Positions 18,001 to 24,000 of a stretch of 56,827 bases of DNA are shown here, in pieces. Every line of letters starts with the position of its first letter. Position 1 is the stretch's first letter. Position numbers: made by a program. Source of the stretch: Mizuhopecten yessoensis (taxonomy: Eukaryota); assembly GCF_002113885.1 (NCBI RefSeq), contig NW_018408109.1:1329396-1386222 (forward strand), read 5' to 3'.

Positions 18001-21000
18001 ATTCTCTCTCTCCCCTACTCTTTATTTTCGTTGGTGTCTCTCTCCCTAGGCACCCATCTTCGTTTTACCTTATCAAACCAAATATAAACAATCAAACAGA
18101 CAAAACAATGCATAAGTCAGAAAAAGGAAAAAGAGGGGGGAAAAGTAGCTATATTTGTGTTAAGCAACATTCAAAGTTCACCTTAATGAATATGTGAAGA
18201 AATTGGATGGTCAGTGGCACAGTGCATTGGCACACTTGCCTTTTACCAAGGAAACTTGGTTGATTATAAGGCACATCGGTTGATGTTAAGAGTGTCCTTC
18301 CAGAGTTATCAAGGTACAGGTTCAAATCCTGGTCTGGTCATAACATTTTCCATATATATACATGTACATGTATTTACTTTCTTCCGAACTAAATTGCCCA
18401 CATAAGGTAATATAGGGTATTGCGTGCCTTTTGGAAAGAAATCATTGTTAAGGATCTTCTGCACATGTAGATCGAGGGAGCTGGAATATATACAAGGATA
18501 ATCCTGGAGGGGGCTACGGGGCCATAGACCCCTCCATGTTCTAATTTTCTTCAAATTTTACATAGAATGGCCCCTCCTAATTTTGTTATTGACTAAAAAT
18601 TGCTGAAAATTGTCCATTTCTCTCAAATTCCAGGATTTTCCCCGATATATATATATGCATTCTTTGTATATATGTGACAGAACCTGACAGAGACTAGTCA
18701 TTAGCGATGCAGGTTCATAACTGTAGCTTAGTTGGTCAGAGCTTCCGTATTGACTTAAATTACATTCTCCATAAATATACATCACATGTTTGATGCATTG
18801 TCAAAATAAAACGCTCTGACCCTCGTATACATTTTGATAGCTCGCTTGCATGGGTAGGATCTCCTTAATTTATCAACTTGTTGGTCTGCACAAAAGTAAA
18901 ATTGAAGTCAGGAAGTTTTGGGCTATACAAATGAAATTAGGAACATATATATCTATTTGTAAATAGGCATATACTTATACTGAAAATAAACATGTACATG
19001 TAGGTCTGTAAAATACATTAAAATCTCAAGAGCTAATAATTTAAATGAAACTCAATACTAAAAACCATTACTTGCGCTGTTGTTTACATAAACAATTAGT
19101 GGCATGCGAGGTAAGTGTATGTATATGTATGATTGTGTAGCACGCGCCACTATTGACAATGACAGCTTAGCGTACCTAGATACGAACGAGTATCGTGTCA
19201 TGACTGGCCATGACACTTGTTTATACGCCGTAAAATACCTTGTCGGAGTAAACACAGCCTCTGAATCTCCTTTTTGTATCCAACTGACAAACGACACATC
19301 ATGTTAACGGGCAACAAAAGGATATGAAGGGGCGAACCCGCACCGCTACTTTCACACTTTCAGCCATTTTTCACGTTCTTCTATTAATTGGCTGTTTCTT
19401 TAACCTCCCTTTTCAAACGGTAAGCGAAAATAATATCGACAGTCTCAATGTCATGACATTTTTTCGTGAAAATAATCACAATATTTTAAAATGAATTTAT
19501 GAATGTTTCAGCCTGCTGATATTACTTTTTATATGTTAAACACAAACGAAATCATACATGAGGGAGAAAGCCAGTAATATAGAAGAGCACATTAGTTACT
19601 TCCGTAAACAAAAGATCGACAACTGTGTTAACTTCCGATCTTAATAAAGCGCGGGAATTTTGAATGCAGTCAATCCTTTGATCAATCCGCCGCGCAGGAG
19701 TGACTTTTTTTTATACCAATTAAAAAATATAAATTCCAAAACTTTCAAAGACAATGAAGCACCCTTCTAAGATAATGAAGCACCCTTCTAAGATAATGAA
19801 GCACCCTTCTAAGACACTTCATCAGGTGACTTATAACCAACGTTTACATGACAGATTGGCGTGTATATTCTTTTCATTAGAATTGTTTTTAATATACATA
19901 ATTTATTATTTGTAAGGGTGTTGCCCTTGTTCAATAAAAGAAAGCAAACAGTTAAATTATAATTGATATTTATGACAAAATAAATTAATATTTAATTGCC
20001 AAAATGATCGCCTAAACTACATGTACAAATAAAGTTCAAACTCCAGTTCTTTATTTTTTTACAGACATAAAATATAAATACTCTACGTTATGAAATATAA
20101 CTCGGAAACTCAGAAAACTATTCTACGCCTCACTCGATCTGTTTGTCAATGGAAATAATGTCCGATAAATTCTTGCTTTTCTACACTCGGCAGTGCTTGA
20201 AACAGTTTACTGTTACACCTTCAAAAAAACAAATCTTCGCCTCGCTTCGCTCGGCAGTGAAAGTATAATTGTCCCACTCTTACAAAGAAAGAAGTTCTAG
20301 ATTTTTGTTGGCAGAAATTAGTATACATGAAGAACCGCCATTATAATTCTAATATATTAGTACCAGATCAGTGCAAAAATCTGTCTTTTTCTGAGTTTAA
20401 AATGTTTGGCAACACGTAATATTAATTCCTGGGTATAAAATGACATAACTGAAAGTTATCTCTTGCACTTGAAGTATAAATAAACAACGTTCTGGGCAAC
20501 GGGGTCTGACTTTTAGTCTGTTATTCATGTAGAAAGCTTGTCCTAACAAAATTGCTCACTGTCGCTATAGTGTCATTATAAAACCGAGTTTGACACCTTA
20601 ATCATGTAAGAGAATCGTTCATTATCACACTAGTCCTGGGTTCGATTCACAGAAGAAGTTTTTGTAGCAAACAGTGTTTTTACAGTTTCCGACACCCATA
20701 CAGTGAAAAGACAATTGCATAACGTAACTATATGGACAAAATAGAGAAGTCATTTGTGACGTCACATACTAGTTGCCTAGCTGCTTAGCAACCGTCAAAG
20801 GCGGAGATGATCAGTCTCTCCCCTCGTGTTTACGTTTTATATTAAGTCTTAGATTACCATAATGACTATCAGGTCATTCTTGCTATTTGTGGTATTGTTA
20901 AGCGCAATGCTGCAAGGTCCTGCTCAATACCTGGACCTTACATGGTAAAACGTTTGGCCTACACTTTACATATTACATGTACATATGTTTGGCGTTATTT

Positions 21001-24000
21001 CTAAATAACGTGTACAAGTTAAATCAAATGTCTCTATCCAATGTTTGCAAATGTTTAATAATAACTTTGTGGTTTTCTTTTAAGCGTGGAGCCGGAACCT
21101 GGATATGGCCGAAGAGTGTTTCATTATTTCACCGCAACTGAAATTGAGAAAGTATGTCCTACTTCTGCCGATCTGACATGGGTAAGGACTCATATATTAG
21201 TATAATTGTCTGTTCCTTTACACAGTTGAAGATTTTAACTTAATATTTAGTACCGTGTTATAATAAAATAAACTTTGCTGCACATAACACATGTGGGCCT
21301 CAAATCCCATATGTATTTCTTCCACTGGAGATGGATTTACATAAGTTGTAAAACTTGTTTCCAAATCCATTTTCAATAATAGTGTACTGTTTTCCATCAT
21401 ACCGTAAATGAAGAAAGAAAAAAAAAAGAAATACAATTAACCCTAACCCTAACTTTCTTGAATTGACGAATGTGGATCATCAGCTGTTTTAATTAAGTAC
21501 AAAACCCTGGAAATAATCATACTTTAATATATTTCAGCGAATTGGAAAGGAGATATTCTGCACTCTTCTCTGTGTGCTTCTGATGCTTTTGTTGGACTAT
21601 GTGCCGTCGATTGCAAATGGCGCCAAAGTAAGATGGCCAGCCATGGTTTCATTAGTCCGCGAATGGATCAATCGTAAGTAACATAGAGCTCGAGGATTGC
21701 AAAACTGTATGATGTTACAGTATCGGATTTCTGTATGGAATAAGAACTTCATTCATTTCAGCTATTTGTTTTTTTATTTTAGTGTTAAACACATCATCAT
21801 CTTAAAACAGTATCAAGGCACGTGAAAACAAAAGATGCTCCTCCCCGTTATTGAATATCCAATACATTCGGTACAATTTTAATATATGAGCTTTTGAGCT
21901 TTCCTTTTGGATGAACTAAGGAATCGGACGTTGTTTTCGTGATACCGTTTTCTAAATCACTTAAACAGGTCCTGCCCCGTCGTAAAATACATATTTGTGC
22001 TTGGTAAGATCAGTTCCCCTTTTGTAATATACATATGTGTGCTTGAACAGGTCCTGCCCTCTGTCGTTGCATACCTATTGGTGCTTGAACAGTCCAACCC
22101 ATGTTGTAACATACGTGTACATTTTTGTGCTTATACAGGTCCTTCCCGCTGTCGTCACTGCGGTACTGCCCCATGTCAGGTCAAATGGAAATGCTTATGG
22201 AAGACCAAAGGATTTCGTAAGAGGGACAGCGCCAATTTTGTGGAGCGGTCAAAGGCCATGATGGTATTCAACTATGGACTATCGATATCAGTGGAACTGA
22301 CTAAAGAGCTGCCACTGGATGACCTGTTCTTGGAGAGGTGGTTCTGCCAGCGATTTGAGGAGGAGCACATGGTGTTGTTCCCACAGTGTATCCAGCGCCA
22401 TATCAACTACTGGTACCCCGTCCCTCGCTAGGTAGGTAGTTTGTTCGTAAGTTTCTTAAAGCCTATTGTCTCCTGAAAAATAACACGTTTGGAAAGATAT
22501 CGGGGATTAAAGGAGCAATGCATTTTATCAGAATATGTAAACTGTTCTCTTTTTGGTATTGTTTCGAACATGTAACAATTTTGACCGGTACATCTTCACC
22601 AGTGGAAAAAAATGTCTTATCTAATAAAAGTTAAATAATGACTTCAAAATGATTGAAATGTTGCAAAATAATTCGTTAATTTTCTTTTCAGATTCATGGC
22701 ACCAATCATCAGGAAGAACATCGATGAGATGAAAGTCGATTATGGAATGGACAGTGTTGACTTTGTGTGATAAAGTCTTATCGGTTTCACTGATTCGATG
22801 TACATGTATATAATGAAATATTAACTGCTAGTAGTCATATACATGTAGATGGAGTCAATGCTGGCTGTATTTAACTTGTCAGTTATTACTATGTAGAATT
22901 TTTAACTGTTTTAATGGTCAATTATTTACAGAGCCTATGCTGGTCAAATTTACCAATTTATAACCTAGTTTACCCTGCATTGGCCAGTACTGGTCCGATG
23001 TTTTTGTTCTGGACAGTTCATATATGGGTCAATATAGTAAGTCTGTGTACTATTATTGCTACACTGTATACAAAAGTTTGGCTATTTTTGTAATGGACAG
23101 TTGTGTGTTTGGAGATTTTATTTGTGATAAAAAAAAACACGAGAGAAATTAAATATATTATTTATTATTTTCATGTCCTATCGTTTTGCTAATCCTCGAC
23201 TCATCTTACGTTGTAGACTTAGGTCAGAAACTCTTACAGCGATATAACACAGGCAATGGGAATGGTCTTATTCGACACACATGGCGCAATAAGGTCTGAT
23301 GAGCCTGTCTGATCCGACACCCTGTGGGACAACACGTTTGTCAGATTAACTTGTCTAAAACGACACACTGTGGGACACATCATGTTTGTCAGATTAACCT
23401 GGCTAAAACGACACACTGTGGGACACAACATGTTTGTCAGATTAACCTGTCTAAAACGACACACTGTGGGACACAACACGTTTGTCAGGTTAACCTGTCT
23501 AAAACGACACACTGTGGTACACAACACTTTTGTCAGATTAACCTGTCTAAAACGACACACTGTGGGAAACATAACGTTTGTCACATTAGCCTGTCTAAAA
23601 CCACACACTGTGGGACACAACACTTTTGTCAGATTAACCTCTCTAAAACGACACACTGTGGGACACAACACGTTTGTCGGATTAACTTGTCTAAAACGAC
23701 ACACTCTGGGACCCAACACGTTTGTCAGATTAACCTGTCTAAAACGACACACTATGGGACACAACACGTTTGTCAGATTAACCTGTCTAAAACGACCCAC
23801 TCTGGGACACAACATGTTTGTCAGATTAACCTGTCTAAAACGACACACTGTGGGACACATCATGTTTGTCAGATTAACCTGTCTAAAACGACCCACTCTG
23901 GGACACAACATGTTTGTCAGATTAACCTGTCTAAAACGACCCACTCTGGGACACAACATGTTTGTCAGATTAACCTGTCTAAAACGACACACTGCGGCTG

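What the first reader, a model, noticed from the sequence alone, without database searches (positions are those of the whole stretch)
20862..22770. Uncharacterised receptor-like gene: signal peptide, tiny two-Cys ectodomain, one TM, and a P2X7-ballast-like Cys domain
Seen: four phase-compatible exons give a hydrophobic leader, an ectodomain of about 40 aa with two Cys, a TM segment, then CRHCGTAPC...N...R...F and FPQCIQRHINYWYP. Only exon 4 is visible in the ORF track. Established: the P2X7 cytoplasmic ballast is a Zn- and guanine-nucleotide-binding domain ending in an LPxCxxxxIRxxFP-type motif, and related domains occur in invertebrate proteins. Inference: this may be a new single-pass membrane architecture for that domain.
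Basis: partly seen in the sequence, partly recalled or inferred. Interest (0 to 1): 0.65.

Follow-up and report, generated by a model that had tools for sequence, protein, structure and literature searches.

The report
Scallop-only small membrane protein gene
This is a real four-exon scallop gene, already listed in public records as uncharacterised, for a small membrane protein with a cysteine-rich inner domain, and no test here linked that domain to the P2X7 ballast.

Summary
The gene model is right. Exons 20862-20944, 21085-21181, 21538-21673 and 22139-22431 (+) have GT/AG borders and phases 0/2/0/1, and give 202 codons. Each exon peptide occurs letter for letter, in order, in P0027, [quoted passage not shown]. 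So the window is Yesso scallop and the gene is already annotated.

It belongs to a multigene family found only in four scallop species: 43 of 43 hits, and 49 of 50 named. None carries a Pfam domain.

The layout holds: hydrophobic leader, about 45-residue outer stub with two cysteines, one membrane helix, and a basic inner domain with four invariant cysteines.

The P2X7-ballast reading is not supported:
- PF20478 matched 0 of 33 members and not exon 4.
- No P2X7 chain came up in the sequence-profile searches of solved structures.
- Foldseek found no P2X7 chain for a confident model, pLDDT 87.
- The middle cysteine cluster that defines the ballast is absent.

What remains is in-register motif likeness and one weak Atlas structure row (TM 0.43).

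Best reading: a scallop-restricted orphan family of membrane-tethered, probably zinc-binding adaptor proteins.

The parts
20862..20944 (+). Exon 1. It holds the start codon and the hydrophobic leader (residues 1-27) plus the first two bases of the C28 codon. Donor is GTAAAA.
   Evidence: The peptide is identical to P0027 residues 1-27. Best 11-residue hydropathy is 3.01.
21085..21181 (+). Exon 2. It encodes the outer stub, C28-VEPEPGY...KVC52P...TW60. The C52 codon is at 21155-21157.
   Evidence: C28 is kept in 31 of 33 members and C52 in 33 of 33. There are 46 tblastn hit rows from family proteins.
21538..21673 (+). Exon 3. It encodes the membrane helix (residues 66-85, window 21553-21612) and the basic juxtamembrane helix. 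Donor is GTAAGT and the exon ends in phase 1.
   Evidence: Best 19-residue hydropathy is 2.17. AF2 predicts helices 55-80 and 82-104.
22139..22431 (+). Exon 4. It encodes the whole Cys-bearing inner domain (residues 106/107-202) and the TAG stop at 22429-22431.
   Evidence: The AF2 model of this exon alone has pLDDT 87.1 and pTM 0.79.
22150..22176 (+). Cysteine knuckle C110-x2-C113-x4-C118 (CRHCGTAPC). All three cysteines and P117 are invariant.
   Evidence: Invariant columns of alignment A1, 33 sequences.
22378..22419 (+). C-terminal motif FPQCIQRHINYWYP (F186-P199) with the fourth invariant cysteine, C189.
   Evidence: F186, P187, C189, I190 and P199 are invariant in A1. The motif is compared with ZCD cluster 3 as given in PMC7016195 section 9.
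21960..22059 (+). Two upstream copies, inside intron 3, of the exon-4 acceptor and its first bases (21960-21977 and 22042-22059; the real one is at 22130-22147). If spliced in the exon-3 phase they meet stops after 4 and 11 codons.
   Evidence: families D1 and D3.
22432..22770 (+). It is probably 3' untranslated or flanking sequence and is not part of the CDS. AATAAA lies at 22623-22628.
   Evidence: P0027 ends at the TAG. There is no Pfam hit for 22693-22764 and no family tblastn hit here. The sequence was read.
20757..20764 (.). TGACGTCA palindrome (CRE type) 98 bp before the ATG. It is a possible promoter element, not tested.
   Evidence: 4 in the window against 0.6 expected. inverted repeat I1.

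Best explanation
What is shown. This is a real protein-coding gene of the Yesso scallop, public record LOC110458353, 202 aa. It is one member of a multigene family that the searches found only in scallops (Pectinidae).

Topology (inferred). The N-terminal hydrophobic leader takes the protein into the secretory pathway. A roughly 45-residue outer stub is probably stapled by a C28-C52 disulfide. One helix spans the membrane. The C-terminal 117 or so residues face the cytoplasm.

Inner domain (inferred). A polybasic linker is followed by a compact bundle of short helices. The invariant C110, C113 and C118 knuckle and the distant invariant C189 most likely hold one zinc ion that locks the N-terminal loop onto the last helix.

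Function (inferred, least certain). The outer stub is short and conserved, not variable, so the protein is unlikely to be a ligand-binding receptor on its own. My best guess is a membrane-tethered adaptor or accessory subunit. The stub and membrane helix would dock on a partner membrane protein, and the zinc-stabilised inner domain and basic linker would recruit cytoplasmic or lipid partners.

Relation to known folds. The inner domain has no demonstrable relative among known families or solved folds. Kinship with the P2X7 ballast is unproven.

The confidence of 0.55 is a blend: about 0.9 for the gene, the family and the layout, and about 0.3 for the adaptor mechanism.
For: Gene and identity:
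- The exon peptides are identical to P0027.
- GT/AG borders and consistent phases.

Family and range:
- 43 of 43 hits at E<=0.01 carry names from Mizuhopecten yessoensis, Pecten maximus, Ylistrum balloti or Argopecten irradians.
- 49 of 50 hits at E<=1 do too. The fiftieth, P0002, shares a 90% cluster with an A. irradians protein.
- The search over 1.84 billion representatives gave only 10 hits at E<=0.001. Eight are family members and two (P0008, P0010) are repeat proteins that I set aside.
- No longer or fused forms turned up: 0 of 4571 candidates at E<=1.

Transcription, indirectly:
- P0002 and P0053 are complete 200-aa proteins read from contigs of 1235 and 987 bases.
- That length leaves no room for three introns of the size seen here, so those contigs are probably spliced transcripts. 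This is inference.

Topology:
- Hydropathy peaks of 3.01 and 2.17.
- Net charge is -2 in the stub and +11 in the 53 residues after the helix.

Zinc site:
- C110, C113, C118 and C189 are invariant in 33 of 33 members.
- H112 is kept in 28 of 33 and H182 in 29 of 33.

Fold:
- The exon-4 model has pLDDT 87.1 and pTM 0.79, with helices at 13-16, 32-52, 61-67, 74-79 and 82-91.
- It has no match at E<=0.001 in the PDB (13 matches at E<=10, best 4.9) or in BFVD (27 matches at E<=10, best 1.6).

Stub is conserved, not variable:
- The mean frequency of the commonest residue is 0.73 in the stub against 0.82 in the helical core.

Family history (tree of 36 full-length rows):
- Species-specific bursts: a clade of 9 M. 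yessoensis rows (support 100/99) and a clade of 7 Y. balloti rows (98/97).
- Older mixed-species clades (97/90 and 100/100).
Against: - No function has been measured, and no paper mentions these genes. A full-text search for six LOC identifiers gave 0 papers. Supplements could not be seen.
- Zinc binding, the disulfide and the leader cleavage are all inferred. No SignalP or DeepTMHMM was available, and I could not read coordinates of the model to check that the four cysteines meet.
- The full-length model is only moderate (pLDDT 73.6, pTM 0.44). The Cys knuckle is less sure there, with 10-residue block means of 56-64.
- The family alignment is shallow, with four species, which can inflate or mislead AF2.
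- In-register motif likeness to the ballast (see the first rival) means 'no known relative' may be wrong.
- Restriction to scallops rests on protein collections only. No eukaryotic genome collection could be scanned.
Confidence: 0.55

Rival explanations
1. The inner domain is a strongly reduced relative of the P2X7 ballast (ZCD) domain that kept one zinc site. Here it is tethered to a single-pass membrane protein, and it might still bind a guanine nucleotide.
For: Motif comparison by eye against the consensus and rat numbering printed in PMC7016195 sections 9 and 11, using alignment A1:
- Cluster 3, (L/I/V)PSC(C/S)x3IRx2(F/Y)P, against the family's F186-P-x-C189-I-x3-I194-N-x2-Y198-P199. P, C, I, F/Y and P are in register.
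- The conserved I/V568-x-P570-x-C572 matches L185-x-P187-x-C189.
- R546-x2-A549-x3-Y/F553 matches R142-x2-A145-x3-F149.
- Cluster 1 has three cysteines with a Pro three residues before the first, as in P107-x2-C110.

Other points:
- Like every ZCD, the domain is C-terminal. It is also encoded by one exon.
- The Atlas structure search lists a P2X7 cluster (PF00864 + PF20478) at TM 0.43 by query, with 85 residues aligned.
Against: - PF20478 matched 0 of 33 members and not the exon-4 peptide at E<=10.
- No P2X7 chain came up in two sequence searches of solved structures at E<=10.
- No P2X7 chain was among the Foldseek PDB matches for either model, although the domain model is confident.
- Cluster 2 (LCCRx3GxCITT) is missing.
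- There are 4 invariant inner cysteines, not 7/8.
- Cluster 1 spacing is Cx2Cx4C, not CxCx2C, and there is no Trp.
- The Arg of 'IR' (rat R578), which the paper reports conserved across Metazoa, is N or D in 33 of 33 members.
- The trailing Y(S/T)G is absent because the protein ends three residues after P199.
- The spacer from R142 to C189 is 47 residues, against 26 in rat.
- The Atlas row rests on a model of pLDDT 0.46 and is matched or beaten by CID-domain rows at 0.44-0.45.
- The paper reports fewer than 10 ZCD genes per species and no membrane segment outside P2X7.
- My own arithmetic, using recalled average residue frequencies, puts the six shared cluster-3 positions at a few tenths of a chance hit per 10^7-residue proteome. 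The motif alone is therefore weak.
Confidence: 0.18
2. The outer stub is the leftover C-terminal cap of a leucine-rich-repeat receptor, like the cap that sits just above the membrane in platelet glycoprotein Ib beta. On this view the family arose from an LRR receptor that lost its repeats.
For: - The family profile's best hit among solved structures is glycoprotein Ib beta residues 86-165, covering cap, stalk and membrane helix, at E 0.74.
- A profile of the stub alone (11 sequences) again finds only two glycoprotein Ib beta constructs, at E 0.95 and 1.0. The printed alignment shares Y-R-D-L-x-C-V-x-P ... R-L ... Y ... E ... C.
Against: - The E-values are near 1, so the hits are not significant.
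- Only this one protein is hit, not the many other LRR-cap proteins with solved structures.
- No LRR-cap family is among the 11 Pfam families matched by any of the 33 members at E<=10.
- Only two cysteines are present. The four-Cys cap pattern is recalled, not tested.
- No longer family members with repeats were found.
Confidence: 0.1
3. The protein is a two-pass hairpin. The N-terminal hydrophobic stretch is not cleaved and acts as a first membrane helix, so both ends face the cytoplasm and the stub is a short outer loop.
For: - AF2 draws residues 3-24 as one long helix.
- The residues before a possible cleavage site (L-Q-G / P) do not show a clean small-x-small pattern. This was read by eye.
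- No signal-peptide predictor was available.
Against: - The leader has the usual build: one basic residue, then about 12 hydrophobic residues, then a polar Q-G-P turn. G19 and P20 are kept in at least 90% of members.
- 12 hydrophobic residues is short for a membrane span.
Confidence: 0.15
4. The protein is a membrane-tethered nuclear factor. The basic linker would be a nuclear import signal, and the zinc knuckle would bind nucleic acid once the inner domain is cut loose.
For: - Weak Pfam hits below cut-off to RAG1 importin-binding (3 of 33 members, best E 0.008) and to a transposase zinc ribbon (4 of 33, best E 0.015).
- Net charge of +11 just inside the membrane.
Against: - All these hits are below Pfam's curated cut-offs.
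- A basic juxtamembrane stretch is the rule for any inner tail, by the positive-inside rule.
- No DNA-binding fold came up in Foldseek.
Confidence: 0.05

Closest known systems
P2X7 ballast / Zn-coordinating cysteine domain (ZCD; Pfam PF20478 P2RX7_C; nanor-like proteins, PTHR36981)
   Same: - It is a C-terminal, cytoplasmic, cysteine-bearing domain encoded by one exon.
- A three-Cys cluster sits upstream, and a [hydrophobic]-P-x-C-x4-I-x3-[F/Y]-P motif sits near the end.
- An R-x2-A-x3-F patch is in register with rat R546/A549/Y553.
- Sources. The motif comparison was made by eye.
   Different: - No Pfam, sequence-profile or Foldseek match.
- The middle Cys cluster is missing.
- 4 invariant cysteines, not 7/8.
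- Different Cys spacing in cluster 1.
- N or D in place of the conserved Arg of 'IR'.
- No terminal Y(S/T)G.
- The domain is about 95-120 residues against about 170-200.
- The family has a membrane helix and 14 or more full-length copies in one species. By contrast, invertebrate ZCD proteins are reported as soluble and fewer than 10 per species.
Platelet glycoprotein Ib beta (small type I membrane protein: LRR cap, membrane helix, short tail)
   Same: - It is a small type I layout with a Cys-bearing segment just above the membrane helix.
- It is the only solved protein the stub profile finds.
- It works as an accessory subunit of a larger receptor complex. This last point is recalled knowledge.
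   Different: - The E-values are about 1.
- The scallop proteins have no leucine-rich repeat and no N-terminal cap.
- The inner domain is unrelated.
Zinc ribbons / knuckles (for example Pfam Zn_ribbon_IS1595)
   Same: - A CxxCG knuckle followed by a further Cys.
- 4 of 33 members give weak hits, best E 0.015.
   Different: - All hits are below the curated cut-off.
- The fourth ligand lies about 70 residues away at the start of a helix, not in a second knuckle.
- The rest of the domain is helical.

Membership tests
P2X7 ballast / ZCD (PF20478, PTHR36981) | Significant match to the Pfam model PF20478 | tested here: not met
   The model matched 0 of 33 family members and not the exon-4 peptide at E<=10. 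It also did not match P0027 or 7 further members at E<=1. HMMER's filters drop most matches above about E 0.1.
P2X7 ballast / ZCD (PF20478, PTHR36981) | Cys cluster 1: PxWCxCx2C (PMC7016195 section 9) | tested here: not met
   The family has P107-x2-C110-x2-C113-x4-C118. There are three cysteines and the Pro is in place, but the spacing differs and there is no Trp.
P2X7 ballast / ZCD (PF20478, PTHR36981) | Cys cluster 2: LCCRx3GxCITT(S/T) | tested here: not met
   There is no CC pair and no such motif anywhere in the 33-sequence alignment. The only other inner Cys (position 175) is kept in 23 of 33.
P2X7 ballast / ZCD (PF20478, PTHR36981) | Cys cluster 3: (L/I/V)PSC(C/S)x3IRx2(F/Y)Px5Y(S/T)G | tested here: inconclusive
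   P187, C189, I194, Y/F198 and P199 are in register. Position 1 is F. S, C/S and R are not matched (N or D in 33 of 33). The protein ends before Y(S/T)G.
P2X7 ballast / ZCD (PF20478, PTHR36981) | Seven or eight conserved Zn-coordinating cysteines (dinuclear site) | tested here: not met
   There are four invariant inner cysteines (C110, C113, C118, C189), enough for one zinc at most.
P2X7 ballast / ZCD (PF20478, PTHR36981) | Fold like the solved rat or human P2X7 ballast | tested here: not met
P2X7 ballast / ZCD (PF20478, PTHR36981) | Guanine-nucleotide and zinc binding | not testable with these tools
   This needs purified protein. The equivalent of rat R578 is not Arg in any of the 33 members.
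Leucine-rich-repeat C-terminal cap (LRRCT) | Match to an LRR-cap profile, and a four-Cys pattern | tested here: not met
   No LRR-cap family is among the 11 Pfam families matched by any of the 33 members. Only two cysteines are present. The glycoprotein Ib beta hits are at E 0.74-1.0. The four-Cys pattern is recalled.
Type I single-pass membrane protein | N-terminal hydrophobic leader, one further hydrophobic span of about 20 residues, and positive charge inside | tested here: met
   Hydropathy peaks are 3.01 (11-residue window) and 2.17 (19-residue window). Net charge is -2 outside and +11 inside. AF2 draws helix 55-80.
Type I single-pass membrane protein | Cleaved signal peptide | not testable with these tools
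   No SignalP or DeepTMHMM was on hand. The hairpin alternative is kept as a rival.

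The most novel reading that the evidence does not exclude
The inner domain is a minimal, one-zinc descendant of the ancient ballast (ZCD) fold that was captured by a membrane protein in scallops and then amplified. This would be independent of the capture that made vertebrate P2X7. It would be the second known membrane-tethered ballast and a natural 'half ballast' for asking what the fold does. Alternatively, and as novel, the domain is a wholly new zinc-stabilised helical fold defining a scallop-specific signalling family.
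Probability: 0.15. Interest if true: 0.6.

Novelty: new variant of a known kind. Interest (0 to 1): 0.3.

Why it matters
If the family is what it seems, it is a taxon-restricted membrane protein family. Its inner domain gives a confidently modelled fold with no solved or viral relative.

That is a modest but concrete addition: a candidate new zinc-binding domain and a marker of lineage-specific innovation in Pectinidae.

It would matter more if remote kinship with the P2X7 ballast were shown. The function of that domain is still open (abstracts listed), and a reduced, membrane-tethered invertebrate version would be a useful comparison.

As it stands, the sequence is already public, nothing is known of its function, and orphan families of this sort are common in molluscs.

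Tried and rejected
- Exon-by-exon Pfam scan: 0 families for each of the four exon peptides and for the piece 22693-22764.
- Atlas feature search with exon 4 and with P0027 residues 84-202: best scores were 0.77 and 0.79 (the latter to Wnt clusters). Both are below the level the tool calls a lead.
- Rfam on 18000-25000: 0 matches.
- Search for longer or fused relatives: 0 of 4571 candidates at E<=1.
- Pfam on variant gene models. P0005 gave only sub-threshold coiled-coil hits in its C-terminal extension. P0022, P0003, P0045, P0054 and P0056 gave nothing above cut-off. P0027 and P0055 gave no hit at all.
- Viral fold library: 27 matches at E<=10, none at E<=0.001. There is no sign of viral origin.
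- A second family copy in the window: none.
- Homodimer prediction with two copies of the exon-4 domain: no verdict (score 0.00 against a mark of 0.32, controls not run, alignment not used). This is evidence neither for nor against self-association.
- Literature. Six LOC identifiers gave 0 papers. A search on scallop lineage-specific or orphan genes listed 10 of 90 papers, none about this family judging by titles and abstract starts only. A search on names for the P2X7 tail domain gave 8 papers, all on vertebrate P2X7 by title.
- 'Not a real gene' is rejected. The reading frame, the cysteines and the length (202 aa in most members) are kept across four species.
- 'Passenger of a mobile element' has no support in the window. 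It could not be tested without the other genomic copies.

Full report
**Scope and method**

The window is AT-rich animal DNA, with GC of 0.30-0.40. It is not human. It holds two N runs, at 35959-36002 and at 54707, which I left untouched.

I left out the step of joining the exons and sending the joined protein. Analyses that needed a full-length protein used public records returned by the search tools.

**The observation**

Reading 20500-23200 and translating each exon in its phase gives four exons on the + strand:

| Exon | Coordinates | Borders |
|---|---|---|
| 1 | 20862-20944 | ATG start; donor GTAAAA |
| 2 | 21085-21181 | acceptor ttttcttttaag; donor GTAAGG |
| 3 | 21538-21673 | acceptor tatatttcag; donor GTAAGT |
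| 4 | 22139-22431 | acceptor cttatacag; TAG stop |

In one search I set the end of exon 3 six bases too far. The donor read puts it at 21673. Phases are 0/2/0/1 and the total is 609 nt.

Only exon 4 lies in a long ORF, 21943-22431. The CDS stops at 22431.

**Identity**

- The exon-4 peptide (96 aa) was scored against 1.84 billion representative proteins. It gave 10 hits at E<=0.001.
- Eight of the ten are relatives. They include full-length proteins of 202, 200 and 180 aa with the same layout. The other two (P0008, P0010) are low-complexity repeat proteins that I set aside.
- Searching with the 202-aa relative P0001 gave 43 proteins at E<=0.01. All 43 are named as uncharacterised or hypothetical proteins of Mizuhopecten yessoensis, Pecten maximus, Ylistrum balloti or Argopecten irradians, and none has a precomputed Pfam domain.
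- One of them, P0027 (uncharacterized protein LOC110458353, M. yessoensis, 202 aa), contains the four exon peptides letter for letter at residues 1-27, 29-60, 61-105 and 107-202. The two split codons match as well.
- A profile search added a few more members: 50 at E<=1, of which 49 are named from the same four species. The remaining one, P0002, shares a cluster with an A. irradians protein.
- A search among longer proteins found none.
- Two complete 200-aa members come from contigs of only 987 and 1235 bases. For an intron-bearing gene this suggests spliced transcripts. That is inference.

**Anatomy**

In a 33-sequence alignment the invariant residues are C52, C110, C113, P117, C118, R142, L153, F186, P187, C189, I190, P199 and P201. 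C28 is present in 31 of 33.

- The leader and the membrane segment are clearly hydrophobic.
- Net charge is -2 in the stub and +11 in the first 53 residues after the membrane segment. This places the Cys-bearing domain in the cytoplasm.
- The stub is conserved, with a mean commonest-residue frequency of 0.73 against 0.82 in the inner helical core. It is not a variable recognition surface.
- AlphaFold2 on P0027 with 41 sequences gave a moderate model, pLDDT 73.6.
- On exon 4 alone with 47 sequences it gave a confident one, pLDDT 87.1 and pTM 0.79. That model has a loop carrying the knuckle and then helices at 32-52, 61-67, 74-79 and 82-91.
- Three cysteines lie in a knuckle and one at the start of the last helix, all invariant. 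This fits a single Zn(Cys)4 site, which is inference.

**Test of the ballast reading**

Rump et al. 2020 (PMC7016195; I read the abstract and sections 9, 10 and 11) define the ballast core (ZCD) by three cysteine clusters:

- PxWCxCx2C
- LCCRx3GxCITT(S/T)
- (L/I/V)PSC(C/S)x3IRx2(F/Y)Px5Y(S/T)G

They report seven or eight conserved cysteines. They also report that invertebrate ZCD proteins are short, lack membrane segments and number fewer than ten per species.

Results against that definition:

- PF20478 matched none of 33 members, nor exon 4.
- Neither the exon-4 peptide nor the family profile hit any P2X7 chain in the solved-structure sequences at E<=10. The only hits were Rpo10, glycoprotein Ib beta and a ferredoxin-type subunit, all at E>=0.65.
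- Foldseek against the PDB listed no P2X7 chain for either model. Best E-values were 2.2 and 4.9.
- Cluster 2 is absent.
- The spacing of cluster 1 differs.
- The Arg of 'IR' is N or D in all 33 members.

- Five positions of cluster 3 are in register.
- The L-x-P-x-C and R-x2-A-x3-F patches are in register.
- One Atlas structure row points to a P2X7 cluster at TM 0.43. That row is based on a poor model, and CID-domain rows score as high.

I rate remote kinship as possible but unproven.

**Other leads**

- The family profile's best solved-structure hit is the juxtamembrane cap of platelet glycoprotein Ib beta, at E 0.74.
- A stub-only profile again finds only that protein, at E about 1.
- This is not significant. 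I keep it as a lead on the origin of the stub.
- No viral fold relative was found.
- The homodimer job gave no verdict.

**Family history**

I built a maximum-likelihood tree of 36 full-length members. Partial or fused models were left out: P0003-P0006, P0009, P0019, P0022-P0024, P0037, P0038, P0042, P0045, P0049-P0051 and P0057. P0052 stood in for P0002 and P0053. The tree shows the following:

- Recent species-specific bursts: 9 M. yessoensis rows (support 100/99) and 7 Y. balloti rows (98/97).
- Older clades that mix species (97/90 and 100/100).
- The window's gene sits alone on an unresolved backbone.

The 14 full-length M. yessoensis members sit on contigs of 14 different lengths, so the family is dispersed.

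**Verdict**

- The architecture is right.

The gene is best described as a member of a scallop-restricted orphan family of small membrane-tethered proteins, probably zinc-binding. No paper mentioning them was found (supplements not visible).

Noticed in passing
window 21960-22147: Intron 3 ends in three copies, 82-88 bp apart, of the exon-4 acceptor plus its first bases (21960-21977, 22042-22059 and the real 22130-22147). The two upstream copies would give stops after 4 and 11 codons. They may be decoy acceptors or a recent local duplication.
   Followed up: partly
window 20742-20779: A TGACGTCA palindrome lies at 20757-20764, 98 bp before the ATG. There are 4 copies in the window against 0.6 expected, with two more close together at 24767 and 24798. 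A second imperfect palindrome (GTTGCC...AGCAAC) follows at about 20772-20792 (read by eye).
   Followed up: partly
window 23304-23994: A 48-bp minisatellite of 14.4 copies at 91% match is open in three frames. It yields spurious ORFs of 233-258 aa.
   Followed up: partly
window 11406-11903 and 16877-17155 (- strand): Kinesin motor exons lie upstream on the other strand (Pfam Kinesin E 4.1e-18 for the first; the second had no hit).
   Followed up: partly
window 37404-39197 (- strand): Two long ORFs lie here. One has phage-integrase-type tyrosine recombinase hits (E 1.5e-5) and the other a GDSL-like hit (E 0.0016), both below Pfam cut-offs. This looks like a Crypton- or DIRS-like mobile element.
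   Followed up: partly
window 31914-32201 and 42685-43032 (+ strand): Two similar GNAT acetyltransferase exons lie about 10.8 kb apart (Pfam Acetyltransf_1 E 1e-7 and 1.4e-6). This suggests a tandem gene pair.
   Followed up: no
window 24905-25246 (- strand): An ORF has a sub-threshold rhodopsin-family receptor match (7tm_1, E 4.3e-4, 20.3 bits against a cut-off of 30.5).
   Followed up: no
window about 21440-21455: A short telomere-like run (AACCCT repeated about 2.5 times) lies inside intron 2.
   Followed up: no
proteins P0005, P0022, P0003 (other scallop loci): Some public gene models fuse part of the family domain to other sequence: a coiled-coil tail (P0005, Y. balloti), an N-terminal extension (P0022) or an acidic tail (P0003). 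Only sub-threshold Pfam hits were found. They may be model fusions or decayed copies.
   Followed up: partly
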